Shown: positions 3,893 to 58,850 of the stretch, one piece after another
Position numbering within the stretch: the stretch's first letter is position 1
Layout of the letters: each line of letters starts with the position of its first letter
NCBI GenBank assembly: GCA_016936575.1
Contig: JAFGXQ010000013.1
Span: 2,835-66,834 of the forward strand
DNA from: Deltaproteobacteria bacterium
GTDB lineage: Bacteria > Myxococcota_A > Polyangia > JAAYKL01
Direction of reading: 5' to 3'
DNA: 64,000 bases
Notes under the pieces: generated by a model
What the model was told of the DNA's origin: nothing
Database searches by the model: none
Seen by the model: only the letters and a program-made list of their open reading frames with translations
Made by a program: the position numbers and the translations under genes

Positions 3893-5788
3893 CTACTCCG
3901 CGACAATCTGGCGGCAGGAGGCAGGGCAGGTTTTGTCGTTGAGGGTATTGCCGTCGTCGCAGTCTTCGAAACCTTCCTGCACGATGCCGTCACCGCAGTA
4001 TTCGTCCATTTTGCAGTTTTCGCCGCATTCCCCGTAGCCGCCGTCGTTAACGCCGTCATCGCATTCTTCGCCGATACCGATTTCGCCGTCGCCGCATACC
4101 GGTCGACACTCCGAGCGGGAGGTGCTGAAACCGCTGAGGGTCAACTTGTAGCTTGAACCGTTGGTCTGCCGTTCCGCCTGGAACACAACAATTTCATAAA
4201 CCTTTCCATCTTCCAGTCCCAGGTCGTTGATGGTCACGCTGCTCTCCAACGGAATATGCACGCCGCCCAAATCCACTTCCAGTCGTCCGTTGATAAATAC
4301 CCATACGTCATCATCGCCCAGGAACGTAAGCACCTGCTGTTTGCCGGCGTCGTATTTGAACCAGAAACGCACCTCGCTGGTAAAATGGAAATTGTGCGAG
4401 AGACTGTAGCCGTCGGGAAGGGCTAAACCCGCCTCTTCGGTGGCAACATCTTCAGCCTGCCAATTGGCGTAGGGCGGTGCGGTGCCGGCGGTACCGTATT
4501 CACTGGTGGCCGTTGTGCCCAGCCCGTCCAGCGGGAAGAAGAAGGGGTCACCGTCAAACTTCTCAATGGAAGCGCAGCAGTACGAACCGGCGGAACCGCG
4601 GCACGCGTCGGTGTAAATATCTGCACAATTGTTACAGTTGCTCGCATTGGTGAGATCACACCACTCTCCGTCGCTTTCATTGCAGCACCAATCTCCCCAC
4701 ACCCACAACTGCCACTGCTCCCCGTCGTCTCCCCAGCGGTTACAGAAGTCACCGGTTCCGGTGGCATACAATTTGAGTGACGACACAACAATCGCGCTTT
4801 TGTCGGAATGGTCGTACCAGTCTTCAAACGCATCTGAGTAGCCGCACGCGGTTTTCAATGTGCCGTCGGTGTCGTTCTCGCCCCCATACCCTTCGGTCAC
4901 TTCTTTGAGGAATACAGGTTTGCCGGCTGAGTTCAGTTCGTCCTGAATCATTCCGGTGGCTATGCCGTCACAGCCGGTCAGGTTCCGTTCAAAGTCCGGA
5001 TGACTCGACGAAAAATCCTTATACACAACCGGAACCTCAATCATCCCCGTCGCCACATCGGGCTGGGTGCAGGTGTAACCGGGTTCCTCGATACAGTCGG
5101 CGCTGCAGCCGTCGCCGCTCGTATTGTTGCCGTCGTCGCATTCCTCATCGATAATGAGGCCGTCACCACAGCTCGACGTACAGCCGGCGGTACCGGCACA
5201 CACGGGCTCCAACTGGCAATTAATATCACAACCGTCCGCCGGAAGCGTGTTGCCGTCGTCACAGGTTTCGGCGCCTTCAAGAATGTTGTCGCCGCAAACG
5301 GTGGGTACGCATGTACTGGGGCTGGCGCCGTCGCATTTGTACCCCACTTCAACCATACACAAGTCGTTGCAGCCGTCGCCACGGGTGATATTGCTGTCGT
5401 CGCATTGCTCGGGAAAAATGATAACGCCGTCACCGCAAAGCGCTACCGGGTGACAGGGTTGTCCGGGAGGGTTACACGACCATCCTTCCTGCACCAGACG
5501 GCAGTTGCCCGAGCAACCGTCGCCATCTTCCATGTTTCCGTCGTCGCAGGCTTCGTCCGAGTTCAGCTCTCCGTCACCGCAGTTTTCTGTGGGCGGAAGA
5601 TTCTCAATGTACTCGGTGGAGTCGGTGTCCGATGTTGCGGGGTCGGTGCCATCGGTATCGTTCGGGTTGTTGTCTCTACCGGTGCCCAATGCCTGATCTT
5701 TTTCGCAATGCAGGGCGAGCACGGCAACACATAAAATCAGTAATGCGTGGTCAATGCGTAGCAATTTAACGTACCTCATATGTTTCAA
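3893..5788 (-). CDS. secreted cysteine-rich repeat protein (Myxococcus-type CxxxCDDGN repeats) with central PA14/fibro-slime-like domain
   Basis: 631 aa. Signal peptide with lipobox-like ALHC. At least eight CGDG...E.CDDGN repeats. Central segment (…VRFWFKYDAG…TFLGDDDVWVFINGRLEVDLGGVH…) resembles PA14/fibro-slime domain. Confidence 0.7.
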   Translation of the reverse strand: MKHMRYVKLLRIDHALLILCVAVLALHCEKDQALGTGRDNNPNDTDGTDPATSDTDSTEYIENLPPTENCGDGELNSDEACDDGNMEDGDGCSGNCRLVQEGWSCNPPGQPCHPVALCGDGVIIFPEQCDDSNITRGDGCNDLCMVEVGYKCDGASPSTCVPTVCGDNILEGAETCDDGNTLPADGCDINCQLEPVCAGTAGCTSSCGDGLIIDEECDDGNNTSGDGCSADCIEEPGYTCTQPDVATGMIEVPVVYKDFSSSHPDFERNLTGCDGIATGMIQDELNSAGKPVFLKEVTEGYGGENDTDGTLKTACGYSDAFEDWYDHSDKSAIVVSSLKLYATGTGDFCNRWGDDGEQWQLWVWGDWCCNESDGEWCDLTNASNCNNCADIYTDACRGSAGSYCCASIEKFDGDPFFFPLDGLGTTATSEYGTAGTAPPYANWQAEDVATEEAGLALPDGYSLSHNFHFTSEVRFWFKYDAGKQQVLTFLGDDDVWVFINGRLEVDLGGVHIPLESSVTINDLGLEDGKVYEIVVFQAERQTNGSSYKLTLSGFSTSRSECRPVCGDGEIGIGEECDDGVNDGGYGECGENCKMDEYCGDGIVQEGFEDCDDGNTLNDKTCPASCRQIVAE

Positions 5789-21482: not shown

Positions 21483-21669
21483 GTCAAGTTCAGAAAAGCC
21501 GAATATCAAGGCAACCATTTAAAAACAAAACGACCGATACAAACCGCTTTTAAATCGTTTTCGCATCAAGTACGATGGACAACAACCTTAAATACACAAT
21601 CATGCGCTTTGCCCGACAATTTCATGCCCGGCAAAAAAATGCATGGGACGCCCTACTGAAAGGAACAAA

Positions 21670-23751
21670 ATGAGCTTTTTAAAACTTATCCTTATTTCTT
21701 TTTGCGCACTTTTCACCATGACCGCTTGCACCGACGAACCGACCGGGGCTCCATTTACAGCGTTCCCGAAACCGGTGCAGGCGCAGTATGCGAAATATTA
21801 CAACTCTCCCAATGACTTTTACGAATTGGACCGTTCGGGCACACTGGGCAATCAAGCCACCGGGGCGCTGTACTGCGAGCAACGCAGCGGGGGAGAAATC
21901 ATTTATACCGATTCGGGCAATGCGGTGCGGGGAACCTGCGGTCTGGCCTTTGTATCGCCACACTACGCCATCACCGCCGCACATTGCGTGGACGTAGACT
22001 CCTGCGGCTATCCGGGTGTTACATTCAAAGTTCGACAATTTGACATTCGCGAGTTGGATGAGTCTGTGCTGGACGACGTATTCACCCTGTCCAATGTGCT
22101 GAATCCCGAATTCGAGACCTGGCAGCCGAATCACTTTCTGACTGATTCAGATGGATACCACTACAATGAGTATGAATGCAGCGTGGAAATTTTGTGTGAC
22201 AGCGCCGGCAATTTCGGACGACGCAACGGTGACATTTGCCAGTTGAACGGCACGTCTTTCTATCGCGACATCGCGCTGGTGCATTGCCCGAATCGCGCAG
22301 ATGACGGCCCATACCTGGAAGTGGCGCCCAGCGTCAACCCCGGCGACAATGTTCTGGTGCACTGGTTTCACGAAATCGTCAATCTCCCGTTGCCTGAAAA
22401 CTGTACAGCGCCGGAATGCGCCAATGCCAACGCGTTTTACAGCTTGCGGTCATCGATGGCGAACAACTTTCACTACATGGGGTTTGATTCCACCCGGGAA
22501 ACGCAGCTGATGCCGCTCATCACGGTGGCTTGGGGACGAAACGACACCGAGACTGATACAGAAACATCCGTTCAAAGCTCCGTGCCGCCGGAGTTGGTCG
22601 AAAACACGCATGCATTGCTCTCGACCGATACCTTCTACGCCAACACCGACATCTGGGGATGCCACGGCATATCCGGTTCCGGCTTACTGGTAGTGGGAGA
22701 TGACGGTGTGGAACGATATGTGGGCCCTGCGCAGCTCGGCTCCTACACCTCGTCCTTGGACACCAATCTATGCGAAACTTCTGATGCGGTGCCGGGACAG
22801 GAAATGCTCCGTTTCGGGCAGTCTTACTATTCCGCAGTATTGGCAGCGTGGGCATTGACGAATGATCCCGCGCTGAATGTAGACACGGATACATCCGCGG
22901 ACAGTGATACTGCGCCAGATACAGACACATCGACAGATGCAGACACCGACAGCGACACCGATTCCGATTCCGATTCCGATTCCGATACCGATACCGATTC
23001 CGATACCGACAGCGACACCGATTCCGATTCCGATTCCGATACCGACACCGATTCCGATTCCGATTCCGACAGCGACACCGATTCCGATACCGATACCGAT
23101 TCCGATTCAGACAGTGACAGCGACACAGACACAGACTCCGATTCAGATTCAGATACCGACTCAGATACTGATTCAGATACCGATACCGATTCCGACGCGG
23201 ATACTGATTCAGATACTGATTCAGATACTGATTCAGATACCGATGCCGATTCCGACGCGGATACTGATTCAGATACCGATGCCGATTCCGACGCGGATAC
23301 TGATTCAGATACCGATGCCGATGCCGACGCGGACACTGATTCAGATGCCGACGCAGATTCCGACGCGGATACTGATTCAGACACTGATTCAGATACCGAC
23401 ACCGATGCCGACGCAGATACTGATTCAGACACCGACTCAGATACTGATTCAGATACCGATGCCGACACAGATTCCGACGCGGATACTGACGCAGACAGCG
23501 ACGATGGCCCGCCTTCGTCAGATTCGGACTCCGGCGGGTTGACCGATTCAGATTCGTCAACAAATACCGGTTCAGATTCGTTGCCGAATGCAGATTCAGA
23601 ACCATTGATGGATAGCGACACAGGTGAAACGCTTGCTGATGAAGAAGATGTTCACACCGAAGAGTCGTGCGGCTGTATGGTTCCGGGAATGCCTACTGCT
23701 CAGGATTCCGATTTACTGAATCTGATGATTCGGCTGTTTACCAATTCGTAG
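21670..23751 (+). CDS. S1 (trypsin-like) serine peptidase lipoprotein with long C-terminal acidic D-S/T/A repeat region
   Basis: ORF 21643..23751. Probable start [20 protein letters not shown] (lipobox). His motif YAITAAHCV, Asp in RDIALVHC, Ser region [11 protein letters not shown]. Then about 220 aa of DSDTD/DADTD repeats and a short C-terminal tail. Confidence 0.65.
22879..23563. repeat. low-complexity GAY-WCN hexanucleotide-type repeat encoding poly(Asp-Ser/Thr/Ala)
   Basis: Seen directly. Produces stop-free ORFs in several frames on both strands, which are artefacts. Confidence 0.8.
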
Positions 23752-23769
23752 TCAATATACCCTTCGTAG

Positions 23770-24864
23770 TCAATATACCCACGGAATGATCCGCTTCGGC
23801 ACCTTCTGAACATATTCTTCCCACAGGGCACCGTATTTCGCGCGGCAGCGCTTCTCGTCATCGCGCTCCCGGGTGGTGAGCAGCAGCACATAGTACAGCG
23901 GATACAGCCAAGCCCACCAAACCAAGGGGTACCCCAACGAAAGTGTCAGTCCCGTTGCCATCAGTACCTCCCCCAGATAGTTGACATGACGGGATATTCC
24001 CCAGAACCCACTGCACAATAGCGAATGCGTACCGTCGGATACCACTGCCGGCTTGAATACGCCCATAAATGATTTGTCAGGTTGCGTCTTGAAATAAAAT
24101 TTCTGCATGTTGGCGCCGCGGGCGAACCCCCACCCCAGAAAAAAAATCGCAGCATACAACGCGAGTAATACCGGGGACAGGTTCGGGCTCGGCAGCGGGG
24201 CCACCGTCCACAATCCGACCGCATAGAAGTACGGGTAAAACGTAAGACACCCGAACGTAAGCTTAAAGCCGACACGTTCGGCAAACAGATCATACGTGTA
24301 CAGGTGTACCCGCTCAAATGTCATGTAATCTAAAAGAAACCAGAAAAACAAAACGGTGTACAGGATTACCGAAGGCGACGCATTGCCCGGGTGCTGCATC
24401 ACATGATGGGCCGCAAAGGACAGAATATTCAGACCCAGCAGGGTTGCCCCAACCAGATACAGAAACATTTTGGCGTCAACGCGGCGGTTGAAATACTGCG
24501 GATTCTTCGAGCGACCTAAAAAGAAGTCGGCAATGAAGCCGGGCTTCACCTTCGGTTTCCCGAGCACTACCGCCAAACTGCCGATCATTCCCAACGTGAC
24601 CGCCCCTGCCAATCCTTCCCAACGGTGGGTGTACAACCAATTGAAGGGAATAATAGATCCCAAACCCAACCCGCCGAATATCGCCATAGACAATAAAAAT
24701 ACGGCCATACCATTTAACCGGTACGTCAACCGCGTGCCGCTTTTTTCATCAACCACATAGCCGGCCACGCGACGTGCCGGCAGCACGATGTGCAACAGCA
24801 GCACGCCCGCGGTAATCAGCCACGGAGCGAAAAAACCTGCAATTGTATTCCATGTGATGTTCAA
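23770..24864 (-). CDS. ERG4/ERG24 sterol-reductase family (DUF1295-like) polytopic membrane protein
   Basis: ORF 23770..25194. The upstream 110 codons overlap the SDR gene in another frame. Probable TTG start at 24862-24864 overlapping the SDR stop (TTGA). C-terminal signature LLCSGFWGISRHVNYLGEVL matches the sterol reductase/DUF1295 motif. Confidence 0.6.
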   Translation of the reverse strand: MNITWNTIAGFFAPWLITAGVLLLHIVLPARRVAGYVVDEKSGTRLTYRLNGMAVFLLSMAIFGGLGLGSIIPFNWLYTHRWEGLAGAVTLGMIGSLAVVLGKPKVKPGFIADFFLGRSKNPQYFNRRVDAKMFLYLVGATLLGLNILSFAAHHVMQHPGNASPSVILYTVLFFWFLLDYMTFERVHLYTYDLFAERVGFKLTFGCLTFYPYFYAVGLWTVAPLPSPNLSPVLLALYAAIFFLGWGFARGANMQKFYFKTQPDKSFMGVFKPAVVSDGTHSLLCSGFWGISRHVNYLGEVLMATGLTLSLGYPLVWWAWLYPLYYVLLLTTRERDDEKRCRAKYGALWEEYVQKVPKRIIPWVY

Positions 24865-25742
24865 CGATTCTCTCCTCTCGTCTGCTCGACATTCTGAATG
24901 GAGTTTGCAGCCGACAGCTCCCGCATGGCGTTTCCCATAACCTGTACCGACAGCTTTCGGGGAAGCAGTCTTGTCATCATCCAATCCGCAAACCGATTCA
25001 TCCGACCGGGAATCACAAACGGCTTTCTCCCCAGTGCCCGAAGTGCGGTTCGCGCCACCACCGCTGCATCGAGCGTTCCCGGCGCTTCCCTGACTTCTCC
25101 ACTTTTTGACGCCACACTCAAGTATCCCGGCGTTCGAATCGCGCCCGCGCAGCAAACCGTGACATCCACCCCCAACGGGCGCAATTCGTACCACAGACTC
25201 TGCCCCAGAATGGAATTGAACGCCTTACTCGCCGCATACGCTGCCACACCAGAGGTGCCCTGGTTTCCGGATAAAGAAGACATCAAAACAACTCCCCCGC
25301 GACGCTCAATCAGCCTTGGAAGCAATGCATGAATCAGCAACAACGGCCCCCGAACATTCACATCGACGGTGCTGTTCAGCTCATGGGCGGTACGCTCAAT
25401 GAACGGCCCCACTTTCGAATAGGCGGCATTGTATATCAACAGTCCCGCCTGCTTTTCCTCAAATGCCTGTAAAAGCATTTTCCCTGTTTCAGGCGTTGAA
25501 AGGTCCGCCCCAATGCAGTGTACCGCAATGTGAAACTGATCTTTCAATTGGTCTCCAAACATTTGCAGCACGTCTTGCCGCCTCGCCACCAATATCAAAT
25601 TCAATCCCGCTTCGGCAAGCTGCGTCGCAAACGCTGCCCCCAGTCCCTCAGAGGCCCCCGCCACCAATGCCCACGGTCCGTATCTTTTCCTGAGTTTGTT
25701 ATTCACGTTCTTTCGCACTTTCTTTTGCCATCTGAAAACCAC
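24861..25742 (-). CDS. SDR family NAD(P)-dependent oxidoreductase
   Basis: 293 aa. Rossmann motif LVAGASEGLGAAFA. Catalytic YAASKAF (YxxxK). Translationally coupled to the downstream reductase-family membrane protein. Confidence 0.8.
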   Translation of the reverse strand: MVFRWQKKVRKNVNNKLRKRYGPWALVAGASEGLGAAFATQLAEAGLNLILVARRQDVLQMFGDQLKDQFHIAVHCIGADLSTPETGKMLLQAFEEKQAGLLIYNAAYSKVGPFIERTAHELNSTVDVNVRGPLLLIHALLPRLIERRGGVVLMSSLSGNQGTSGVAAYAASKAFNSILGQSLWYELRPLGVDVTVCCAGAIRTPGYLSVASKSGEVREAPGTLDAAVVARTALRALGRKPFVIPGRMNRFADWMMTRLLPRKLSVQVMGNAMRELSAANSIQNVEQTRGENR

Positions 25743-25926
25743 AGTTTCCTTTCATTGCTTCTGATGGATTCTCTATCATAGGAAAAGGTATAAAGGGGCA
25801 TATTATCTCACATCCCTCGTTCTCGGCAAAATTACCGGAAGTGTTACCGAAAATATTTTCAATCGATATTTCCGACTATCCCCGGTTTGAGTTGAAGACG
25901 ATATCGAGATTGAATATGCTCCTCTT

Positions 25927-28608
25927 ATGAAACATAACGCAACAGACGTCTCAACCAACAACCCCATCACCGAATTTTCCACCGGCCTTCCGGCGTTGGA
26001 TAAACTGATCGGGGGGGTGCTTCCCGGTGACAATTTCGTATGGCATGTCGACAGCTATGACACGTTTTTTCCGGTCGCTCGAATGTTTACAAAAGGCGCG
26101 TACGCGCTCGATCATAATGTGGTCTTCTTTCGCTGGAACGACACCAAAAATCCGTTCAGACAATGGGATACCGATCTCACCCGGAACGTTTTCGAGTATC
26201 GCCTTCATCCCAAAAACGATTTTGAACGATTTATCACCGAAATGCACACAGTTATTGAGGATGCCGCGCCTCACACTGTATTCATTTTTGATCTGCTGTC
26301 CGATTTAACCAACCATTTTCGGGCGGAACAGTCACTGGAAAATTTTTTCGTGTTGACCTGTCCATTTATTCTGCAAATGAAGCATCTGGGCGTATTCCCC
26401 ATTCTTCGAAACCGCCATCCGTTCAGCACGGCACACCCGATTCAGGAGACCACACAGATTGACATCGACTTGTTTCATTATAACCAGGCGAAGCATCTTC
26501 ATTTGCGCAAGGCGGATGGACGTCATACAGATTTAATGTACACCATGCATCGCTGGGAAGAAGACCGCCTGGTACCGCTGCTAAACAGCGTTGATGCGGT
26601 GACCGCGCTTCATGACGGGGGTTGGGAAGGGCTCCAGTCGGCATCATATCGAATGATTATTCAGTGGGATCGAGAATTCATGAATGGGGCGGAATACCTT
26701 GCCCAACCACAAATCGATGCCGCTGAAAAACAAAAGCAGCTGACGCGGCTTCTTCCGATGATTATCACTCGCGACCCGAGGATGTTGCGATTATATGAGC
26801 GCTATTTCACCCTTGAAGATATTATTTACGTATGGAAACGAACCATTGGCTCCGGCATGATTGGCGGCAAATCCGCGGGAATGCTGTTATCTCGCGCAAT
26901 TGTGAAAAAAGAAATTCCGGAAGCCTCTCAGTATCTGGAACCCCATGATTCCTTTTTCATTGCATCTGACGTGTACTACGATTTTCTTGTAAAAAATAAT
27001 TGTTGGCGTATTCGAAAAAAACAACAATGTCGCGAAACACTCCTTGAAGACGCCGCGGTCGGACGCAAGCGCATTTTAAACGGAAATTTCTCCGCTGAAA
27101 TTATGCAACGTTTTGCCGACATGCTGCGCTACTTCGGCCAGGAGCCCATCATTGTTCGCTCTTCCAGTTTACAGGAAGATGCATATCAAAATGCCTTTGC
27201 CGGAAAATACGAAAGCGTTTTCTGTTCCAATCAGGGAACGCCGCAAACGCGACTTGACGCATTCACCAATGCAGTTCGCACAGTATATGCCAGTACAATG
27301 AGCAATGAAGCACTTCGGTACCGCGAAAAACGGAACCTCCTCGGGCAAGACGAGCAAATGGCCATTCTGGTACAACGGGTATCCGGTACCCGTTGCCGGA
27401 ATACCTTTTACCCCCACATGGCCGGCGTCGGCCTTTCGTACAACCCATATATCTGGAATCCAAAAATCAAACCGGAGGCAGGGGTACTCCGTCTTGTGGT
27501 GGGTCTGGGCACCCGAGCCGTCGACCGACACGATGACGATCACGCGCGTGTTGTTGCACTGAATATGCCCGAATTGCCGCCCCTGGGAGATTCAGAATCC
27601 GGCCGTTCCTATACACAATGTAAAGTGGATATTATCAACCTCAAAGAAAACAAGATTCAATCCAGATACTTCGTCGATCTCATTGAACAATGTAAAAACT
27701 TTCCATCCAATCGTTTGGCAGCAGTAGACACAATTGTTCAAAAGCGACAGCAGGAGACAGGGCACCGCGGTCGCGTTCCCTGGGTGGTGGATTTTACCCA
27801 ATTGTTTCGAAATACAGATTTGGCGTCATCATTTCAAAAAATTCTCGTGGCGCTGAAGAAAACCTATGAGACCGAAGTTGAAATTGAATTCACAGTGACA
27901 TTATTGCCGGATGACTCCGTCCGTTTAAACATCGTCCAATGCCGTCCATTTCAGATTGAACTTGACGGAGAACTTGCAACAAGTTCTCAAATCCCCGCAC
28001 ATGCGGTTCTGAAAACAAAGCAAACGACCATTTTACACGCCAACGGCGCCATACTCGGAAAAAGTCGACGTCATCATGTGAACCGAATCATTTTCGTCGT
28101 ACCCGCCGCATACAGCATGTTATCCGAACAAGACAAATATATTGTGGCTCGGCTTATCGGAAAACTCACACGGTTGACACCGCCGAAAGTGAATGACGAT
28201 GATGAACACGTCAATGTTGTATTGGTCGGTCCCGGACGATGGGGAACGAGAATGCCTTCATTGGGCGTACCGATTACGTCGAGCGATATCAGTAATGTAT
28301 CCGCCATGTGCGAACTCGACATTATGCACGAGGGATTAATCCCGGACTTGTCTCTTGGCACTCATTTCTTCCATGAGCTGGTGGAGTCCAATATTCTGTA
28401 CATCGGATATTTCAGCGCACGCCCCGACAACAGTTTGCATATGCAATTTTTAACCCAAACACATAACCGATTGGAAGAATTGCTTCCTGAAGAAAATCGC
28501 TGGGAAAACGTGGTTCGCGTCATTGACAGCACCGCCACCATACCGCTGTATCTTTCGGCCGACCTCCAGCAGCAGTCAGCGAAGCTATTCGGCATTGAGC
28601 AGACGTAA
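25927..28608 (+). CDS. fusion protein: KaiC/RecA-like degenerate ATPase domain plus PEP/pyruvate-binding (PPDK_N, PEP synthase-like ATP-grasp) domain
   Basis: 893 aa. N-terminus STGLPALDKLIGGVLPGDNFVWHVDS resembles KaiC/RadA N-terminus but lacks Walker A. Middle region GMIGGKSAGML...IIVRSSSLQEDAYQNAFAGKYESV...AILVQRVSG matches the PPDK_N / PEP synthase nucleotide-binding domain. No obvious phosphohistidine swivel domain. Confidence 0.65.
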   Translation: MKHNATDVSTNNPITEFSTGLPALDKLIGGVLPGDNFVWHVDSYDTFFPVARMFTKGAYALDHNVVFFRWNDTKNPFRQWDTDLTRNVFEYRLHPKNDFERFITEMHTVIEDAAPHTVFIFDLLSDLTNHFRAEQSLENFFVLTCPFILQMKHLGVFPILRNRHPFSTAHPIQETTQIDIDLFHYNQAKHLHLRKADGRHTDLMYTMHRWEEDRLVPLLNSVDAVTALHDGGWEGLQSASYRMIIQWDREFMNGAEYLAQPQIDAAEKQKQLTRLLPMIITRDPRMLRLYERYFTLEDIIYVWKRTIGSGMIGGKSAGMLLSRAIVKKEIPEASQYLEPHDSFFIASDVYYDFLVKNNCWRIRKKQQCRETLLEDAAVGRKRILNGNFSAEIMQRFADMLRYFGQEPIIVRSSSLQEDAYQNAFAGKYESVFCSNQGTPQTRLDAFTNAVRTVYASTMSNEALRYREKRNLLGQDEQMAILVQRVSGTRCRNTFYPHMAGVGLSYNPYIWNPKIKPEAGVLRLVVGLGTRAVDRHDDDHARVVALNMPELPPLGDSESGRSYTQCKVDIINLKENKIQSRYFVDLIEQCKNFPSNRLAAVDTIVQKRQQETGHRGRVPWVVDFTQLFRNTDLASSFQKILVALKKTYETEVEIEFTVTLLPDDSVRLNIVQCRPFQIELDGELATSSQIPAHAVLKTKQTTILHANGAILGKSRRHHVNRIIFVVPAAYSMLSEQDKYIVARLIGKLTRLTPPKVNDDDEHVNVVLVGPGRWGTRMPSLGVPITSSDISNVSAMCELDIMHEGLIPDLSLGTHFFHELVESNILYIGYFSARPDNSLHMQFLTQTHNRLEELLPEENRWENVVRVIDSTATIPLYLSADLQQQSAKLFGIEQT

Positions 28609-28631: not shown

Positions 28632-29639
28632 TTACAAAAACGCCTGTAACCGATCATCCAACTCTGAAAACGAAAATAGTTGGTCGTACGGAAAAATTCC
28701 CGCCATTGCACTCGACACCACTCTGATACCGGTTTCTTCAAAAATTGAGGTCGGATTCAGCCCTCCGATAATAATGGCGCCCGCTCTGTCGGGAGAAACC
28801 GGAAAGTCAAAAATGCTCTGCCCCGGATTTCCAAGGCACATCAGACTGCCCAACCCGATTTCCTGAAGCCGTTGCGCCACAGACCGAATAATGCTGACGC
28901 TCTCCCCGGGAAACTCGCGAAAGCTTGCGCCGATTAAGCCATTTCCGCTGGTAATCGCTCCGATGTAATCGGCCATTCCGGCGCGAATAAATATTTCAAG
29001 CGGGTCAATACTGGTGCCGTCGTATGAAATCAATTCTACGAAACGTCGCGCTTTTCCTTTGCGAATTTCAAGCAAGCCCCCGAATCTGGAAGTTACCGGA
29101 ATTCCGCGACGCTGAAGAATACCATTGAACGTTATTGAACAAACGGTACCCAACCCGACATTTCCATCCGGAATAATGGTACCGAAACATGAACTTCCCG
29201 GACCAAGCAACGTCATCATTCTTCCCATGGCGTATCCCTTGGAAAATACCTTCGCTATCAATTTGCGGCGATAGACCGTGAATTCTTTTATCGGAACGAT
29301 CGAAATATTGACCACTACCGTACCCTGTCGGGTAATTGGATCAAAATCCATGCGGTACGCCATCGTATCTATTTTTCCAGATAGAAATCCCACCCGTTCG
29401 TGCACTCGCGATGATTCAGATTCCCGCACTCCGGCTTCTTTAATCATGCGTCCTTTTCGCCCCCAATTTTCAGTAAACCCGTTCTCGTCGAATTCCTGTA
29501 GATACAGCCGTACTGTGCGTTCGCTGATGTCAAACCCTTGAGCAGTTAATGTGTTTGTTATTCTCGTGCTTGAGAGAGGTACTTGGCTATTGGTCAGTAC
29601 ATCAAGAATGGCAAGCCGCTTTTTTTCCTTTTTGTCCAT
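28632..29639 (-). CDS. NrpR-like (DUF128) nitrogen-regulatory transcriptional repressor family protein
   Basis: 335 aa. N-terminal winged HTH (KKRLAILDVL...STRITNTLTAQGFDISERTVRLYLQEFDENG) followed by two repeated domains, consistent with the NrpR architecture. Divergent from gdhA. Confidence 0.55.
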   Translation of the reverse strand: MDKKEKKRLAILDVLTNSQVPLSSTRITNTLTAQGFDISERTVRLYLQEFDENGFTENWGRKGRMIKEAGVRESESSRVHERVGFLSGKIDTMAYRMDFDPITRQGTVVVNISIVPIKEFTVYRRKLIAKVFSKGYAMGRMMTLLGPGSSCFGTIIPDGNVGLGTVCSITFNGILQRRGIPVTSRFGGLLEIRKGKARRFVELISYDGTSIDPLEIFIRAGMADYIGAITSGNGLIGASFREFPGESVSIIRSVAQRLQEIGLGSLMCLGNPGQSIFDFPVSPDRAGAIIIGGLNPTSIFEETGIRVVSSAMAGIFPYDQLFSFSELDDRLQAFL

Positions 29640-29771: not shown

Positions 29772-31172
<1,401 letters not shown>

Positions 31173-44011: not shown

Positions 44012-45589
44012 ATGAGTAACGCACCGAAAGTCAACCGAATCTGGGACACGCTGTTTTGCGGCAACCGACGATACACCGCAGCGCTGCTGGTCTCCGTAGC
44101 GGTTCATATTTCGGTGTATATGTACTATTCGCCGACATACGAAGAGGTGAAGGACATCGCCATGGAATTTGACCTGGTAACCAGCGAGATGGACCAGCCC
44201 CTGGCTCCCGATGCAGAAGGCCCGCGCGACTTAAAAAAGACCCCGGAAGAGGACCAACCCGATGAAAATGCCGAATCCGCCGATGAAACGCCGCTCCCGG
44301 ATAACAACGGAAAGTTGATTGGCGACACCGATTTAGTTAAAGACACAGAGGCGCCCGCCACCGACTCGGACACCGGTGCCGGAGCGGACACTGATTCGGA
44401 TTCAGAAAAAACCGACACCGATAGCCTGACCGATACCGATACCAAATCTGACTCCGATGCCAACAGGGATTCAGACACCGCAATCGCGTCAGCCGATTCA
44501 GACTCGAAATCGGATTCCGGCCCGGTACATATCGTCGCAAATGATACGGACAGTGATTCCCGCACAGATTCCGACAGCGCATCAGTGTTTACCTCCGCCG
44601 ACTCGGACAGCGGGGGGAACAAATTTCCGGACTCTATCGGCGCGGCAGGGGGACCCGAAAACGGTGTATGCCTGCACGACGTATTCTCCTACGGAATTCA
44701 AAACCCCAAATGGATGACGTGGCTCAGCATGACCGCATTCGCCGGTACGCGCTACGAACAAGGACTGGCGGGTATTTTAAACTCTTTTTATCTATACAAT
44801 GAAATGGTATCCGCCACCGAAATCGATCCGCTCACAGAACTGGAAGGCGTGCTCATCAGTGCCGACAACTTCGCAGATTTCAGCACGTACCAAATCGTCA
44901 CAACCTACAATATCGGGCAGGAGGTGCTCAAAAACCGGCTGGTAAAAAATGTCGGCGATAAGCCCGGCTTTGCCGTGTCGCCAACCAACCAGGGGGTCTC
45001 GGGGGTGCTCCCCGGCAGCTACCGCTGGGACATGGTCGGTTCGGGCCGCGTGATGGTGGCCAGCGACGCCCAAAAGGGAATATTCAACCCCGAGTGGCCC
45101 AAGGGAGTAACCTGCATGATGCCCATGCCGCCGTTTGAAGGAAACGCGCAAAAACAGTTTCGCTCTCTGGTGCGTTCAAAATTGGGACCGGCCAAAGCCG
45201 GCGACCGATGGCCGGTGATGCTGATGGCGACGCGGGATCCGAACGCCGTTGGTTTGTACAACAATCCACAATTGGCCGCCATGTTTCAATACGCGGTGCT
45301 AAAGGGATATTTCTCTGAGCCGATTCAGGTTCAGGGCGAAGCGAAATTCAACGGAAGCCCCCAGGATATGGTTCGAGTGGAATACATGGTAAAATACCTG
45401 ATCCAGAAGGCAGATTACCTGAAGTATCTCGGACTTGGGGGAATCGCCGATAAGATTGAGTACCGAATTGAAGGCGACACATTATATTTTACGATTCCGC
45501 TTACAGAAAAGCAGGTTGCCGTCGCCCTGCTGGTGCTGAAGCAATACAGCAAAATGCTGAACGAGCATTTCAGTCAACCACCCAAATAA
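44012..45589 (+). CDS. membrane-anchored hypothetical protein with acidic D/S/T-rich linker
   Basis: 525 aa. N-terminal TM helix (AALLVSVAVHISVYMYY). About 100 aa acidic linker with DSD/DTD repeats. About 330 aa C-terminal domain of unknown function. Confidence 0.5.
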   Translation: MSNAPKVNRIWDTLFCGNRRYTAALLVSVAVHISVYMYYSPTYEEVKDIAMEFDLVTSEMDQPLAPDAEGPRDLKKTPEEDQPDENAESADETPLPDNNGKLIGDTDLVKDTEAPATDSDTGAGADTDSDSEKTDTDSLTDTDTKSDSDANRDSDTAIASADSDSKSDSGPVHIVANDTDSDSRTDSDSASVFTSADSDSGGNKFPDSIGAAGGPENGVCLHDVFSYGIQNPKWMTWLSMTAFAGTRYEQGLAGILNSFYLYNEMVSATEIDPLTELEGVLISADNFADFSTYQIVTTYNIGQEVLKNRLVKNVGDKPGFAVSPTNQGVSGVLPGSYRWDMVGSGRVMVASDAQKGIFNPEWPKGVTCMMPMPPFEGNAQKQFRSLVRSKLGPAKAGDRWPVMLMATRDPNAVGLYNNPQLAAMFQYAVLKGYFSEPIQVQGEAKFNGSPQDMVRVEYMVKYLIQKADYLKYLGLGGIADKIEYRIEGDTLYFTIPLTEKQVAVALLVLKQYSKMLNEHFSQPPK

Positions 45590-52787: not shown

Positions 52788-53810
52788 ATGAAAAAACTAC
52801 TCATCCTTCTTTTAAGCCTCCTGGCCCTGGTTGCATTCAGCTGCAGCGACTCAGGATCATCGGGAGAAAGCGATGGAGATGCGGATTCCGACTCAGATGC
52901 GGATTCGGATTCCGACACAGACTCAGATTCGGATTCGGATACGGATTCTGACTCAGACACCGACTCGGATACGGACACCGACGCGGACACCGACGCGGAC
53001 ACTGACACTGACACCGACGCAGACACTGATGCCGATACCGACGCCGACACCGACACCGACACTGACGCGGATACGGATTCCGACACAGATTCAGATACCG
53101 ACACCGATGCCGATTGTGCCTATAACTGCGCCGGAAGCGAACAGGCGTGTGAAAATGGGTGGGGTGTCGAAGCCGGTAGCGTAGTGGATGGCGACTGCGT
53201 GGTTGTCGGCGGCCCCAATGACGGCGAAGACGGTTTCTGCTGCATGCCTGCCGGTGCAGACGGCGATACCGATAGCGACACAGACTCGGATACCGATGCC
53301 GATACCGATACCGACGCCGATACCGATGCCGATACCGACGCCGACACAGACTCAGATGCCGACTGTGCATATGATTGTGCCGGTAGTGAGATGGCGTGTG
53401 AAAATGGATGGGGTGTCGAAGCGGGTAGCGTAGTGGATGGCGACTGCGTCGTTGTCGGCGGTCCAAATGACGGTGAGGACGGTTTCTGTTGTATGCCGGC
53501 CGGTGCAGACGGCGACACCGATAGCGACACCGATTCGGACACCGACTCAGACACAGACGCCGACACTGACGCCGACACTGACGCCGACACTGACGCGGAT
53601 ACCGACGCCGACACCGATTCAGATGCGGATTGTACATCCTGTCACGACCTTCCTCCAGGTGGCCGTCCTCACGACAATACACATAATGAATTCTCGTGTA
53701 ATGATCCCGACTGCCACGGCGGTGTGGTGAGCGCTGACGGCTCCACAATCGTCGATGACAGCCTCCATATGGACGGCTCAAGCAACGCGGCATGTAACAA
53801 CTGCCACTAA
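52788..53810 (+). CDS. acidic-repeat lipoprotein with two duplicated Cys-rich modules and C-terminal paired-CxxCH (putative c-type heme-binding) module
   Basis: 340 aa. MKKLLILLLSLLALVAFSCSDSG lipobox. Three DSD/DTD/DAD repeat tracts. Two near-identical about 60 aa six-Cys modules. C-terminus CTSCHDLPPGG...CNDPDCHGG...CNNCH. Confidence 0.65.
   Translation: MKKLLILLLSLLALVAFSCSDSGSSGESDGDADSDSDADSDSDTDSDSDSDTDSDSDTDSDTDTDADTDADTDTDTDADTDADTDADTDTDTDADTDSDTDSDTDTDADCAYNCAGSEQACENGWGVEAGSVVDGDCVVVGGPNDGEDGFCCMPAGADGDTDSDTDSDTDADTDTDADTDADTDADTDSDADCAYDCAGSEMACENGWGVEAGSVVDGDCVVVGGPNDGEDGFCCMPAGADGDTDSDTDSDTDSDTDADTDADTDADTDADTDADTDSDADCTSCHDLPPGGRPHDNTHNEFSCNDPDCHGGVVSADGSTIVDDSLHMDGSSNAACNNCH
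53110..53610. repeat. tandem intragenic duplication (two about 250-bp units, about 85-90% identical)
   Basis: Seen directly. Each unit encodes DCAY(N/D)CAGSE(Q/M)ACENGWGVEAGSVVDGDCVVVGGPNDGEDGFCCMPAGADGDTDSD plus an acidic repeat. Confidence 0.6.
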
Positions 53811-56520: not shown

Positions 56521-57207
56521 ATGGGGGGCAATATGACACAGATTTCGGATATATGTGACCGGTATACGCACGCGGTTTTCAACACAGACCAGGATACGGC
56601 GCAAGATACCATTTACCAGGCGCTGAATGAAGGACTACTGGCCGAAGAACTGGTCTTCAATGTTATTTTGCCGTCTCTGGAAAACATGCTCGAAACGTTG
56701 GTTCAGAACGACAACGCAACGTTGTCGCAACATTTTATCGCCGCCAAGGTATCGAGCGCAATGGTCGAAATGTTGCTTCCCAAATTTTCTGGGACCGCCC
56801 ACGCAAACGGAGTTGTGGTTATCGGCACCGCTCGGGGTGACTTTCACGGGCTTGGTAAAAAAATCGTTTCGGGCTGTCTGACCGCCAACCTGTTTACCGT
56901 TTATGACGTGGGGCTCAACGTGCAACCGGAGCGGTTCGTACAGGAGGCGCTGCAAAAAAACGCCTCTGTCATCGCGGTTTCGTCAATGATGATGCACACC
57001 GCAATCGGCGATGACGGGCCAAAAAGAATAAAAAAACTACTGCAGGACCGGCAGCTGACCGACCGTATCAAACTGATCGTCGGAGGCGCACCGTATCGAT
57101 TCGACGACAAGCTGTACCGCGATGTGAATGCCGATGCCACGGCATTGGATGCACTTTCTTCGGTGGCGGTATTCAAGCACCTGGTTCAGGAGGTGCGTCA
57201 TGCCTGA
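56521..57207 (+). CDS. cobalamin (B12)-binding corrinoid protein (MtaC/MtbC-like: B12-binding_2 helical cap plus Rossmann B12-binding domain)
   Basis: 228 aa. DxHxxG motif in GDFHGLGKK followed by S..LS-type and GG motifs (SSMMMHT, VGGAP). Start may be the internal MTQIS. Confidence 0.75.
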   Translation: MGGNMTQISDICDRYTHAVFNTDQDTAQDTIYQALNEGLLAEELVFNVILPSLENMLETLVQNDNATLSQHFIAAKVSSAMVEMLLPKFSGTAHANGVVVIGTARGDFHGLGKKIVSGCLTANLFTVYDVGLNVQPERFVQEALQKNASVIAVSSMMMHTAIGDDGPKRIKKLLQDRQLTDRIKLIVGGAPYRFDDKLYRDVNADATALDALSSVAVFKHLVQEVRHA

Positions 57208-58237
57208 TTCGATGAGCCTCTTTGGAAAATTGATGAACGGAGAGCTTCCCAGCCGGGTTCCGGTGGCGCTGAATCTCTTCGACCAGGGCCAGAAAGAACT
57301 ACGCCTCACCAGCGAACAGTACTATAGCCGTGCGGAAAATGTGGTCTCCGGACAGCTTGAACTGCGAAAAAAATACGGCCATGATGTGGTGTGGGGAACC
57401 CACTATGTCGCCCGCCAGGCGGAGATTCTCGGTTCCCGCCGTACCATTTTTCCAACCAACGGCCCCCCGAACGTGGGCGATATGGTGATAAAAACACACA
57501 AGGACATCGAGACACTGCAAATTCCGGACGATGTGACAGAACATCCGTCATTCACCATTCAACTCGACACCATTCGCATGCTCAAGCGTGAACTGAACGG
57601 CAGCGCACCGGTATGCGCATTTCAAACCGGCACATTCACTCTCCCTTCCATTCTAATGGGCATTCATGCGTGGATGGACTTATTTTTAACCGGCCCCCCA
57701 TCGCTGGTAGACGAGCTACTGACAAAATGCTCGGAATATACCATAAAAACTTTTTCGGCGCTTAAAGAAGCCGGCGCGACGCTGGTAGCCTACGCGAATC
57801 CGATGGTGTCCACCGACTTTTTCTCTCTGCCGCAAATTACAGAACGCTGTCTGCCGTGGGTTAAGCGGGATATGACGCGCATGGGCACAGACGGTCTGGT
57901 TTATTTTTGCGGTGGTTCTCGCATCAACGGCGTGCTTCCCGAAATACTGAAACGCACCACCATCGGTGCATTCCTCGTGCACCCGCAAGACGATGTGGCA
58001 CACGCCAAAGCATTGGTCGGCGGCAAGGCACTGGTCGCCGGAGCGATCAATGATATTCAGCTCATCCGATGTACACCGGAAGAAGCACGTCAGAGCACAA
58101 AAGAGATAATCGAAAAAGGCGCGCCTGGCGGAGGGTTTATTTTAAGCTCCCTCGTGATGCCGTTTCAAATTCCAACTCAGAATATACATGCGGTGGTCGA
58201 TGCGGCACATCAATACGGCGCCTACGAAGCGACCTGA
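57200..58237 (+). CDS. uroporphyrinogen decarboxylase (URO-D) family protein, MtaA/CmuA-like corrinoid methyltransferase
   Basis: ORF 57128..58237. Probable start MPDSMS overlapping the corrinoid protein gene end by 8 nt. TIM-barrel URO-D-like sequence, lacking the uroporphyrinogen-specific context. Confidence 0.75.
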   Translation: MPDSMSLFGKLMNGELPSRVPVALNLFDQGQKELRLTSEQYYSRAENVVSGQLELRKKYGHDVVWGTHYVARQAEILGSRRTIFPTNGPPNVGDMVIKTHKDIETLQIPDDVTEHPSFTIQLDTIRMLKRELNGSAPVCAFQTGTFTLPSILMGIHAWMDLFLTGPPSLVDELLTKCSEYTIKTFSALKEAGATLVAYANPMVSTDFFSLPQITERCLPWVKRDMTRMGTDGLVYFCGGSRINGVLPEILKRTTIGAFLVHPQDDVAHAKALVGGKALVAGAINDIQLIRCTPEEARQSTKEIIEKGAPGGGFILSSLVMPFQIPTQNIHAVVDAAHQYGAYEAT

Positions 58238-58241
58238 TGCG

Positions 58242-58850
58242 ATGAACCACTCTCGCGCCACTCGAATGATCAGCTGCAGCATTCTGAAAAAGGAGGTGCT
58301 GCATGTTCTGAAACGCCGTGAAGGTGCAGTCGATATTACATTCCTGCCGTCGTCTCTTCACAACGACCTCGACAAACTTTCCGCGCGACTAAACGACGCA
58401 ATGGGACGCTTCAACGCGCCCACAGTGGTACTCTACGGCACTTGTCATCCTCAGATGGACAAATTCATCTCTCACCACAACGCCCAAAGGATTCCCTGTC
58501 AAAACTGTATTGAACTCCTGCTGGGAGCTGAACAGTATACCCAATACCTCGCTGACGGCGCGTTTTTCCTGTTGGAGGAATGGGCGCATTCATGGGAAAA
58601 AAACATCGCCGCTGCACTGGGAGCGAATATCGCTGCAAGAAACGCTCTTCTCCGCGATTCGCATCAATACCTGTTATGCGTGAACACACCCTGCTCCCGA
58701 GATTTTTCAGTTCAGGCGAAAAACATCGCGAAACAAACTGATCTGCCGATTCGGTCCCTTGATGTAGAACTCAATTATCTGGAGAACGTCTTTGACCAAA
58801 TACTGATGGTCGGTGACCGTTCTTCCAAAGGAGTAATGCGTAATGAATGA
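58242..58850 (+). CDS. DUF1638-like protein
   Basis: ORF 58188..58850. Probable start MNHSRATRMIS. Cys-containing motifs (GTCHPQ, CQNC). This family is recurrently encoded next to corrinoid protein/MtaA-like pairs (established knowledge, from memory). Confidence 0.5.
   Translation: MNHSRATRMISCSILKKEVLHVLKRREGAVDITFLPSSLHNDLDKLSARLNDAMGRFNAPTVVLYGTCHPQMDKFISHHNAQRIPCQNCIELLLGAEQYTQYLADGAFFLLEEWAHSWEKNIAAALGANIAARNALLRDSHQYLLCVNTPCSRDFSVQAKNIAKQTDLPIRSLDVELNYLENVFDQILMVGDRSSKGVMRNE

What the first reader, a model, noticed from the sequence alone, without database searches (positions are those of the whole stretch)
23770..25742. Translationally coupled SDR oxidoreductase and ERG4/ERG24-like sterol-reductase-family membrane protein
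The SDR stop (TGA) overlaps a probable TTG start (TTGA) of a polytopic protein whose C-terminus carries the LLxSGxWGxxRHxNYxGE signature of eukaryote-type sterol C14/C24 reductases (DUF1295 superfamily). Such pairs in bacteria may reduce sterols, hopanoids or other polyprenoid or lipid double bonds. The substrate is unknown, and the pairing hints at a two-step keto/ene reduction.
Basis: partly seen in the sequence, partly recalled or inferred. Interest (0 to 1): 0.5.

Follow-up and report, generated by a model that had tools for sequence, protein, structure and literature searches.

The report
Conserved SDR plus sterol-reductase-like operon
Two overlapping genes encode a soluble NADPH-type dehydrogenase/reductase and a membrane enzyme built like a sterol double-bond reductase; the pair is kept together in at least six bacterial phyla, most of them not known to make sterols, so it probably saturates and reduces an unidentified membrane lipid.

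Summary
On the minus strand, an SDR gene (24861-25742) ends in a TGA that overlaps the TTG start of a 364-aa polytopic protein (23770-24864). That protein is a real ERG4/ERG24-fold enzyme: Pfam E=6e-48, and the AF2 model matches MaSR1 (4QUV) at TM 0.83. It is not an ICMT. The NADPH-contact residues are conserved. However, it falls in a separate, apparently uncharacterised clade, made of ~361-aa bacterial proteins plus proteins from choanoflagellates, chytrids and amoebozoans. This clade lacks the N-terminal ~70 residues of sterol reductases. The predicted catalytic Tyr and Asp of sterol C14-reductases are an invariant Phe and an invariant Glu here, and the clade has its own HLYTYD motif. The pairing is the strongest result. 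In 80 species-level loci, an orthologous SDR lies immediately upstream in about 63 and adjacent on the opposite strand in four or five. The 4-nt NTGA overlap is present in 46. No third gene is conserved, and the 64-kb window has no sterol, hopanoid or carotenoid genes. The best reading is a self-contained two-enzyme NADPH module, carbonyl/alcohol plus C=C reduction, acting on one hydrophobic lipid. De novo sterol synthesis is unlikely and the substrate is unknown. It is a new variant of a known kind, of moderate interest.

The parts
24861..25742 (-). Classical SDR oxidoreductase gene (293 aa from GTG 25742; alternative start GTG 25706 gives 281 aa)
   Evidence: Pfam adh_short E=1.6e-33. GxSxGxG, R54, D80, N105-A-A, S156, Y169 and K173 are invariant or nearly so in 62 partner SDRs. 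No hydrophobic segment was detected. NCBI names the identical protein 'SDR family NAD(P)-dependent oxidoreductase'.
23770..24864 (-). ERG4/ERG24-fold polytopic reductase gene (364 aa from TTG)
   Evidence: Pfam ERG4_ERG24 E=6.1e-48, profile positions 81-432 of 432. PDB 4QUV E=1.1e-33. AF2 model pLDDT 90.9, and Foldseek gives TM 0.83 to 4QUV.
24861..24864 (-). TTGA stop/start overlap (SDR TGA, reductase TTG)
   Evidence: Read directly from the sequence. The same 4-nt overlap occurs in 46 of 80 related loci.
24872..24875 (-). GGAG Shine-Dalgarno-like element, 7 nt upstream of the TTG and inside the SDR 3' end
   Evidence: Read directly from the sequence. Its function is inferred.
23968..24021 (-). 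C-terminal signature LLCSGFWGISRHVNYLGE (residues 282-299), including N295 (NADPH phosphate contact) and E299
   Evidence: N295 corresponds to MaSR1 N359, which lies in the NADPH pocket (PMC4951196). E299 corresponds to MaSR1 D363.
24337..24339 (-). Codon for Phe176, at the position of the predicted catalytic Tyr241 of MaSR1
   Evidence: Alignment mapping. Phe is invariant in 51 family members. Tyr occupies this position in all sterol-reductase-clade sequences examined.
24289..24306 (-). Clade-specific motif H187-L-Y-T-Y-D192
   Evidence: H187, L188, T190, Y191 and D192 are invariant. Sterol reductases have L-[TS]-T-[WM]-D at this position.
25802..25829 (-). Sigma-70-like promoter match (TTGCCG-16-GATAAT with TG), ~60 nt upstream of the SDR start
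   Evidence: The number of such matches in the region is not above the shuffle expectation, so this is only a candidate.

Best explanation
A self-contained two-gene operon encodes two enzymes. The first is a soluble or peripheral classical SDR of the NADP(H) type. The second is an NADPH-dependent, membrane-embedded C=C reductase of the ERG4/ERG24 (sterol-reductase) fold, with about 8-9 TM helices. The genes are translationally coupled, so the two proteins are made together and probably act as a complex or in direct succession on the same hydrophobic membrane lipid. The SDR interconverts a carbonyl and an alcohol. The polytopic enzyme saturates a double bond, presumably by protonating the alkene and transferring a hydride from NADPH, as in sterol reductases. 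The reductase belongs to a distinct clade shared with some protists, not to the C14/C7/C24 sterol-reductase clades. The substrate is therefore most likely not a de novo sterol intermediate. It is more likely another isoprenoid-type or long-chain lipid, or an acquired sterol.

Shown here: family, fold, conservation of cofactor residues, clade separation, and conservation of the gene pairing.

Inferred: sequential action on one substrate, the reaction chemistry, and the substrate class.
For: Family and fold.

NADPH-contact residues: MaSR1 N359 and R395 (PMC4951196) correspond to N295 and R332. Both are invariant in 51 homologues.

SDR features: the S-Y-K residues, the glycine motif and an invariant Arg after strand beta2 (NADP(H) type) are conserved in 62 partner SDRs.

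Pairing across 80 species-level loci from Actinomycetota, Spirochaetota, Bacteroidota, Pseudomonadota, Myxococcota and Marinimicrobia:
- An SDR with 38-55% identity to the window SDR lies immediately upstream on the same strand in about 63 loci.
- It lies adjacent or within ~1.7 kb on the opposite strand in 5.
- The two genes run in one frame without a stop in L011.
- A 4-nt overlap is present in 46 loci and a 1-nt overlap in 5.

Shared history: the distance matrices of the two proteins correlate (Mantel r=0.77, 0 of 999 permutations reach it).

No third partner: the next most common neighbour occurs in 11 of 80 loci, at variable distance within one phylum, so it reflects lineage synteny. Contexts L081 and L082 hold unrelated housekeeping genes.

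Clade separation and altered residues.

Precedent: an SDR and a polytopic reductase share one lipid substrate in dolichol synthesis (DHRSX with SRD5A3; PMC11250103).
Against: There are no biochemical data for any member of this clade. The predicted proton-donor Tyr of sterol C14-reductases is Phe here, so the catalytic mechanism may differ from the one assumed. Seven of the 80 loci, and L082, have no SDR within the flank, so the reductase can exist without an adjacent partner. The deeper clade-B branches P0130 and P0125 also lack it. Gene adjacency shows a functional link, not a shared substrate or a physical complex. The SDR could run in the oxidative direction.
Confidence: 0.6

Rival explanations
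1. The pair modifies sterols or steroids taken up from eukaryotes (prey, host, algae, wood). The SDR acts as a hydroxysteroid dehydrogenase or ketosteroid reductase, and the membrane enzyme saturates a ring or side-chain double bond.
For: The only characterised relatives of the membrane protein are sterol reductases. The best solved relatives of the SDR are a 7beta-hydroxysteroid dehydrogenase (5fyd/5gt9, E=1e-25) and 11beta-HSD1. NCBIfam 7betaHSDH scores 104 bits. Hosts include termite-gut Treponema, Bdellovibrionales, Myxococcota and alga-associated Flavobacteriaceae and Saprospiraceae. The sister eukaryotic clade occurs in sterol-making protists.
Against: All SDR matches are far below the equivalog cutoffs and are generic for classical SDRs. 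The predicted catalytic Tyr and Asp of sterol reductases are replaced. No sterol transporter or catabolic genes are co-located in any of the 80 loci. The module also occurs in free-living oligotrophs such as Luminiphilus, Limnohabitans and Marinimicrobia.
Confidence: 0.2
2. The pair saturates a linear isoprenoid alcohol, such as undecaprenol or another polyprenol, phytol or geranylgeraniol, or a retinoid. It would use the three-step route known for dolichol: the SDR oxidises alcohol to aldehyde, the membrane reductase saturates the alkene, and the SDR reduces the aldehyde back.
For: The DHRSX + SRD5A3 pathway uses exactly this division of labour between an SDR and a polytopic reductase (PMC11250103). 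A universal substrate would fit the very wide, patchy distribution and the high conservation, with mean pairwise identity of 60% across phyla. The lack of any third conserved gene fits a short detour on an existing lipid.
Against: SRD5A3 belongs to a different family of the same superfamily, and the window protein gave no steroid 5-alpha-reductase hit. ERG4/24 enzymes are known only on sterol dienes. To my knowledge, alpha-saturated polyprenols are not reported for these bacteria. This rival rests on analogy only.
Confidence: 0.15
3. It is a canonical sterol C14 (or C7 or C24) reductase working with a 3-ketosteroid reductase in de novo bacterial sterol biosynthesis.
For: JGI auto-annotations for several homologues read 'delta14-sterol reductase'. 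There is Pfam and fold similarity to MaSR1. Some carriers are Nannocystaceae or Enhygromyxa, which do make sterols (PMC10202945 is listed).
Against: The protein falls outside the clade that holds MaSR1, LBR and DHCR7-like proteins. It lacks the N-terminal ~70 residues. Tyr241 is replaced by Phe and Asp363 by Glu, both invariantly. The 64-kb window has no OSC, squalene epoxidase, CYP51 or hopanoid genes, and its gene content looks anaerobic (NrpR regulator, corrinoid methyltransferase genes). Most carrier taxa are not known sterol producers (Wei et al. 2016, PMC4919349). In the Enhygromyxa loci L021 and L078 the SDR is absent.
Confidence: 0.04
4. The membrane protein is an ICMT/PEMT-type methyltransferase rather than a reductase, and the SDR adjacency is incidental.
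For: JGI names many homologues 'protein-S-isoprenylcysteine O-methyltransferase Ste14'. There is a weak ICMT Pfam match (17.4 bits).
Against: The ICMT score is below its cutoff of 24, while ERG4_ERG24 scores 164 bits. Foldseek gives TM 0.27 to ICMT 5vg9 and 0.83 to 4QUV. The NADPH-contact residues are conserved. The adjacency is conserved in about 68 of 80 loci.
Confidence: 0.01

Closest known systems
MaSR1, delta(14)-sterol reductase of Methylotuvimicrobium alcaliphilum (PDB 4QUV), with eukaryotic ERG24/TM7SF2/LBR
   Same: Same Pfam family and same fold (TM 0.83; 32% identity over 348 aligned residues). Same C-terminal NADPH-binding half, including N359/N295, R395/R332, K319/K255, the RH-NY motif and the C-terminal KYG...W..Y...VP.RIIP..Y.
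   Different: The window protein lacks the first ~70 residues. The predicted catalytic Tyr241 is Phe and Asp363 is Glu. The LTTWD motif is replaced by HLYTYD. It falls in a separate clade in the tree. It is paired with an SDR. It occurs mostly in bacteria not known to make sterols.
Uncharacterised eukaryotic ERG4/ERG24-family proteins, e.g. Monosiga brevicollis A9VAA6, Salpingoeca rosetta F2U813, chytrid, Corallochytrium and amoebozoan proteins
   Same: Closest relatives outside bacteria, at 42-48% identity over residues ~110-364. They carry the same WF, HLYTYD and NYxGE signatures. The Pfam match of the one member checked (Monosiga, P0126) also starts at profile position 81, like the window protein.
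   Different: They carry a long insertion after the third helix region and variable N-terminal extensions (FUN14 in one chytrid protein). All are annotated as hypothetical. No classical SDR partner is known. The Salpingoeca model is joined to a truncated extended-SDR (Epimerase/3beta-HSD) domain, which may be a gene-model merge.
DHRSX + SRD5A3 (dolichol synthesis) and KAR + TECR (fatty-acid elongation)
   Same: A soluble or peripheral SDR and a polytopic NADPH reductase handle the carbonyl/alcohol and the C=C of one membrane lipid (PMC11250103). TECR/KAR is cited from my own knowledge.
   Different: Those reductases belong to the steroid 5-alpha-reductase family and reduce carbonyl-conjugated alkenes. 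The genes are not linked. This is a resemblance in logic only, with no membership claim.
Mycolate reductase CmrA and 7beta-hydroxysteroid dehydrogenase (relatives of the SDR partner)
   Same: Full-length classical SDR similarity: NF040690 at 147 bits over residues 24-276, and 5fyd at E=1e-25. Both act on carbonyls of bulky lipids.
   Different: Scores are far below the equivalog cutoffs (380 and 300 bits). The partner SDRs form their own orthologous group, 38-55% identical to the window SDR and 51% on average among themselves across phyla.

Membership tests
ERG4/ERG24 family (PF01222) | Match to the family HMM above the gathering score | tested here: met
   164.1 bits against a cutoff of 27, E=6.1e-48, profile positions 81-432 of 432.
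ERG4/ERG24 family (PF01222) | Fold of the solved member MaSR1 | tested here: met
   AF2 model with pLDDT 90.9 and pTM 0.91. Foldseek to 4QUV gives E=9e-17 and TM 0.83/0.78.
ERG4/ERG24 family (PF01222) | NADPH-pocket residues (MaSR1 N359 and R395, equivalent to LBR N547 and R583) | tested here: met
   N295 and R332, invariant in 51 homologues.
Sterol C14-reductase (ERG24/TM7SF2/LBR/MaSR1) orthologue | Predicted catalytic Tyr (MaSR1 Y241) and Asp (D363) | tested here: not met
   Phe176 and Glu299, both invariant in the clade. Tyr is present in all sterol-clade sequences examined, and Asp in all except P0257 and P0260, which carry Glu. These catalytic roles are themselves predictions from modelling (PMC12489058).
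Sterol C14-reductase (ERG24/TM7SF2/LBR/MaSR1) orthologue | Ten TM segments including the N-terminal ones | tested here: not met
   The alignment starts at MaSR1 residue 70 and Pfam profile position 81. The model shows about 8-9 long helices.
Sterol C14-reductase (ERG24/TM7SF2/LBR/MaSR1) orthologue | Groups with known sterol reductases in a tree | tested here: not met
   An NJ tree on the C-terminal 255 residues places it in a separate superclade. This is a simple distance tree without support values.
Sterol C14-reductase (ERG24/TM7SF2/LBR/MaSR1) orthologue | Host has the sterol pathway (squalene epoxidase, OSC, CYP51) | tested here: inconclusive
   None is present in the 64-kb window. The rest of the genome could not be examined.
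ICMT (PF04140) | HMM match above cutoff and ICMT fold | tested here: not met
   17.4 bits against a cutoff of 24. TM 0.27 to 5vg9.
DUF1295 (PF06966) | HMM match above cutoff | tested here: met
   28.2 bits against a cutoff of 20.4, but only over residues 238-354, under the much stronger ERG4_ERG24 match. It reflects the shared cofactor-binding half.
Classical SDR (PF00106) | Gly-rich dinucleotide motif, NNAG-like motif, Ser-Tyr-Lys catalytic residues | tested here: met
   adh_short 116 bits. G29-x-S-x-G33-x-G35, N105-A-A, S156, Y169 and K173 are conserved in 62 partner SDRs. R54 is invariant, which suggests NADP(H).
Mycolate reductase CmrA (NF040690) / 7beta-HSDH (NF050024) | Equivalog score cutoff | tested here: not met
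   147 bits against 380, and 104 bits against 300.
Conserved SDR-reductase operon (defined here) | Orthologous SDR immediately upstream with stop/start overlap | tested here: met
   TTGA in the window. NTGA in 46 of 80 loci, TAATG in 5, and the SDR adjacent in about 68 of 80.

The most novel reading that the evidence does not exclude
The operon marks an ancient, non-sterol branch of the sterol-reductase superfamily, shared by many bacterial phyla (including anaerobes) and amorphean protists. This branch would carry out an as yet undescribed saturation of a common membrane lipid together with a dedicated SDR. That activity could be the ancestral one from which eukaryotic sterol C14/C7/C24 reductases were recruited.
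Probability: 0.3. Interest if true: 0.75.

Novelty: new variant of a known kind. Interest (0 to 1): 0.5.

Why it matters
ERG4/ERG24 enzymes are treated as markers of sterol biosynthesis. An earlier phylogenomic study concluded that ERG24 has no bacterial homologues outside sterol producers (PMC2817430). This window's protein belongs to a large family: more than 3000 homologues at E<=1e-5, spread over at least six phyla. Its members keep the NADPH machinery but change the predicted catalytic residues, and they travel with their own SDR. Identifying the substrate would do three things. It would define a new membrane-lipid modification. It would prevent misreading these genes as evidence of sterol synthesis in metagenomes and biomarker work. 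It would also inform how sterol reductases arose. Culturable carriers exist, including Luminiphilus sp. nBUS_07, strain HTCC2080 and Lutimonas saemankumensis, so the question can be tested directly.

Tried and rejected
Literature: eight full-text searches, plus reading six papers, found no characterisation of this bacterial clade. The 2026 '8,14-Bsr' sterol reductase is an unrelated NTF2-fold protein. The MaSR1 structure paper was not held under the id I tried, so residue roles come from PMC4951196 and PMC12489058.

Third partner gene: all-vs-all clustering of ORFs in the 80 loci gave only lineage-specific synteny.

Context look-ups: the look-up of encoding contigs had no record for P0001. L081 and L082 contain unrelated housekeeping genes.

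Plasmids: only a distant Planktothrix hit at 29% identity.

RNA elements and repeats: Rfam found nothing in 23400-26200, and there are no inverted repeats there.

Promoter and terminator scans: not above the shuffle expectation.

Gene fusions as Rosetta-stone evidence: there is one in-frame read-through, L011, from a long-read MAG, so an indel error is possible. L022 looks frameshifted. The Salpingoeca fusion joins two truncated domains and is probably a gene-model merge. I treat all three as anecdotal.

Tools unavailable: the AFDB fold library was not available. Model coordinates are not exposed, so the substrate pocket could not be measured.
Full report
**1. What is in the sequence**

Both genes lie on the minus strand. 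The SDR ORF runs 24861..25742, giving 293 aa from GTG 25742. An AGGA lies 4 nt upstream of that GTG. NCBI's model of the identical protein starts at GTG 25706 (281 aa), while another gene caller uses 25742. Conservation among homologues begins at YGPWALV, so the start is uncertain by 12 codons, and nothing below depends on it.

The membrane-protein reading frame is open from 25194. Homology begins at the TTG at 24864..24862, giving 364 aa. On the minus strand the junction reads AGA GGA GAG AAT CGT TGA ACA TCA. The SDR stop TGA (24863..24861) therefore overlaps TTG as TTGA, and a GGAG lies 7 nt upstream.

**2. Is the TTG start real?**

Three results support it:
- The nearest non-identical homologue, P0002 (74% identity), begins MSLTWNTIAGFF at exactly this position. 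Other homologues begin 3-8 residues before the conserved AGFFAPW.
- The first in-frame ATG is at codon 53, inside the conserved region.
- In 80 related loci, the SDR stop and the reductase start overlap by 4 nt (ATGA, GTGA or TTGA) in 46 and by 1 nt (TAATG) in 5. Gaps of 2-45 nt occur in about ten.

The window's junction is therefore typical of the family. NCBI's model starts at an ATT seven codons further in (P0001), which I consider less likely.

**3. What the membrane protein is**

Pfam gives ERG4_ERG24 at 164 bits (E=6e-48), covering profile positions 81-432 of 432. DUF1295 matches only the C-terminal 117 residues. ICMT is below its cutoff, and NCBIfam has no model for the protein.

The only solved relatives are sterol reductases. 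These are MaSR1 (4QUV), at E=1e-33 and aligned from its residue 70, and a 592-aa delta(14)-sterol reductase chain (9l5r).

An AlphaFold2 model built on 51 homologues is confident (pLDDT 90.9, pTM 0.91). It superposes on 4QUV with TM 0.83. The best ICMT structure reaches only 0.27.

LBR N547 and R583, equivalent to MaSR1 N359 and R395, lie in the NADPH pocket, and their mutation reduces NADPH binding (PMC4951196). They correspond to N295 and R332 here. Both are invariant in the family. On this evidence the protein is an NADPH-dependent ERG4/ERG24-fold enzyme and not a methyltransferase.

**4. It is not an orthologue of the known sterol reductases**

A phmmer search of 1.84 billion representatives found 1707 relatives at E<=1e-3, of which 202 score E<=1e-30. 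A distance tree on the conserved C-terminal 255 residues splits them into two superclades.

| Feature | Sterol-reductase superclade | Window's superclade ("clade B") |
|---|---|---|
| Members | MaSR1, Xenopus LBR, DHCR7-like and other 370-640-aa proteins | Bacterial ~361-aa proteins and eukaryotic ~355-580-aa proteins |
| Residue at window position 176 | Tyr | Phe |
| Motif at positions 187-192 | L-[TS]-T-[WM]-D | H-L-Y-T-Y-D |
| Motif ending at position 299 | NYxGD (Glu in P0257 and P0260) | NYxGE (Asp in P0128, P0129 and P0229) |

The eukaryotic clade-B proteins come from Monosiga, Salpingoeca, three chytrids, Corallochytrium, Luapelamoeba and Phalansterium. All are annotated as hypothetical.

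Position 176 aligns with MaSR1 Tyr241 and position 299 with Asp363. Modelling of ERG24 predicts these two as the catalytic residues (PMC12489058). Phe176 and Glu299 are invariant in the 51-sequence alignment.

The eukaryotic clade-B proteins are 42-48% identical to the window protein over residues ~110-364. MaSR1 is 32% identical over the whole alignment. In the window protein and in Monosiga P0126, the two checked, the Pfam match starts at profile position 81, so they lack the N-terminal ~70-80 residues.

Two caveats apply. The tree is a simple neighbour-joining tree without support values. The catalytic roles of Tyr241 and Asp363 are themselves predictions.

**5. The SDR and the conservation of the pair**

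The upstream protein is a classical SDR (adh_short, 116 bits). Its best NCBIfam and PDB matches are lipid or steroid carbonyl enzymes: mycolate reductase (147 bits), 7beta-HSDH (104 bits; PDB 5fyd at E=1e-25) and 11beta-HSD1. All score far below the equivalog cutoffs. No hydrophobic segment was detected.

One scan of one-genome-per-species contigs returned 80 loci. They come from Actinomycetota, Spirochaetota (including termite-gut Treponema), Bacteroidota, Gamma- and Betaproteobacteria (Luminiphilus, HTCC2080, Limnohabitans), Myxococcota, Bdellovibrionales and Marinimicrobia. The position of the SDR in these loci is:
- **Upstream, same strand:** about 63 loci have an SDR with 38-55% identity to the window's directly upstream.
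- **Opposite strand:** in 5 loci the SDR lies downstream on the other strand, within about 300 nt in four (L053, L059, L069, L074) and about 1.7 kb away in L077.
- **Possible fusion:** in L011 the two genes run in one frame without a stop.
- **Absent:** 7 loci have no SDR within the flank.

The partner SDRs keep the glycine motif, an invariant Arg after strand beta2 (which suggests NADP(H)), and the Ser-Tyr-Lys residues.

Mean pairwise identity across phyla is 60% for the reductase and 51% for the SDR. Their distance matrices correlate (Mantel r=0.77), as expected if the pair is inherited or transferred as a unit.

No third gene is conserved. The next most frequent neighbour, an AMP-binding enzyme, occurs in 11 loci, nearly all Actinomycetota, at variable distance. 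Two further contexts contain unrelated housekeeping genes. The deeper clade-B branches P0130 and P0125 lack the SDR. The pairing is therefore a feature of the core ~361-aa group.

**6. Context in the window**

The operon is flanked by a convergent secreted protein with Asp-Thr/Asp-Ser repeats (21643..23751) and a divergent PPDK_N-domain protein (25927..28608). A Pfam survey of 40 ORFs across the 64 kb found no squalene, sterol, hopanoid or carotenoid genes. The survey did find an NrpR-type regulator, corrinoid-methyltransferase-like genes, a GH9 cellulase and a U32 peptidase, which suggests an anaerobic lifestyle. GC content at the operon (0.52) matches the surroundings. No Rfam element is present. 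A promoter-like match lies ~60 nt upstream of the SDR start, but such matches are not enriched in the region.

**7. How it most likely works**

Shown:
- an NADPH-type SDR and an NADPH-binding ERG4/24-fold membrane enzyme;
- stop/start overlap of the two genes;
- co-occurrence across phyla in two different gene orders.

Inferred: the two act on one hydrophobic substrate. The SDR handles a carbonyl/alcohol group and the membrane enzyme saturates a C=C. The nearest mechanistic precedent is dolichol synthesis. There the SDR DHRSX oxidises polyprenol, the polytopic reductase SRD5A3 saturates the alkene, and DHRSX reduces the aldehyde back (PMC11250103). That system uses a different reductase family, so it is an analogy and not a membership claim.

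De novo sterol synthesis is unlikely for four reasons: clade placement, altered residues, the host range, and the absence of pathway genes nearby. Modification of acquired sterols remains possible (about 0.2), as does saturation of a linear isoprenoid (about 0.15). I put 0.6 on the general two-enzyme lipid-reduction model, with the substrate undetermined.

**8. Novelty**

The genes are already in databases under automatic names such as DUF1295, 'delta14-sterol reductase', 'Ste14' and 'SDR family oxidoreductase'. I found no paper that characterises this clade or notes the conserved pairing, within a library that does not cover all journals. An earlier phylogenomic study stated that ERG24 has no bacterial homologues outside sterol producers (PMC2817430). 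I rate it a new variant of a known kind, of moderate interest. The window's copy is one ordinary member of a large and apparently unstudied family.

Noticed in passing
window 23745-23780: There is an exact 18-nt tandem duplication, TTCGTAGTCAATATACCC x2. Copy 1 contains the TAG stop of the + strand gene 21643..23751. Copy 2 contains the stop codon of the reductase gene. With a single copy the two convergent genes would end stop-against-stop.
   Followed up: partly
window 21643-23751, 44012-45589, 52788-53810, 62189-63619 (all +): Four ORFs carry long Asp-Ser/Asp-Thr dipeptide-repeat tracts. They hit staphylococcal SD-repeat adhesin models only through the repeat. The first also has a trypsin-like TAAHC motif and a C-terminal CGC-containing tail. 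The last has a PHB-depolymerase-like esterase domain.
   Followed up: partly
window 3893-5788 (-): This protein has five myxo_disulf_rpt (DUF4215) cysteine-rich repeats plus a fibro-slime domain. That is consistent with a Myxococcota-like or 'deltaproteobacterial' MAG.
   Followed up: no
window 28632-29639 (-) and 29835-31172 (+): An NrpR-type nitrogen regulator lies divergent from a glutamate dehydrogenase gene. To my knowledge this family is best known from archaea.
   Followed up: no
window 56521-58850 (+): A gene trio: B12-binding domain protein, URO-D/MtaA-like methyltransferase and DUF1638. It suggests corrinoid-dependent methyl transfer and an anaerobic host.
   Followed up: no
window 60728-62077 (+): PET-hydrolase-like (cutinase/lipase-type) domain protein, 200 bits.
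   Followed up: no
L085 6001-7065: A 354-aa intron-less clade-B ERG4/24-like gene sits on a 2-Mb contig. Its neighbours carry zf-C4 nuclear-receptor, Sec7, PH and LIM domains, so the contig is apparently a eukaryotic, probably animal, genome.
   Followed up: no
L011 4912-7074: In one Actinomycetota MAG the SDR and the reductase are in one frame with no stop, giving a 720-aa ORF with a ~30-aa linker. It may be a natural fusion or a long-read indel error.
   Followed up: partly
P0182 (Salpingoeca rosetta F2U813) and P0144 (Borealophlyctis): Eukaryotic clade-B proteins with extra domains. In one, a truncated ERG4_ERG24 domain is joined to a truncated Epimerase/3beta-HSD extended-SDR domain. The other has an N-terminal FUN14 domain.
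   Followed up: partly
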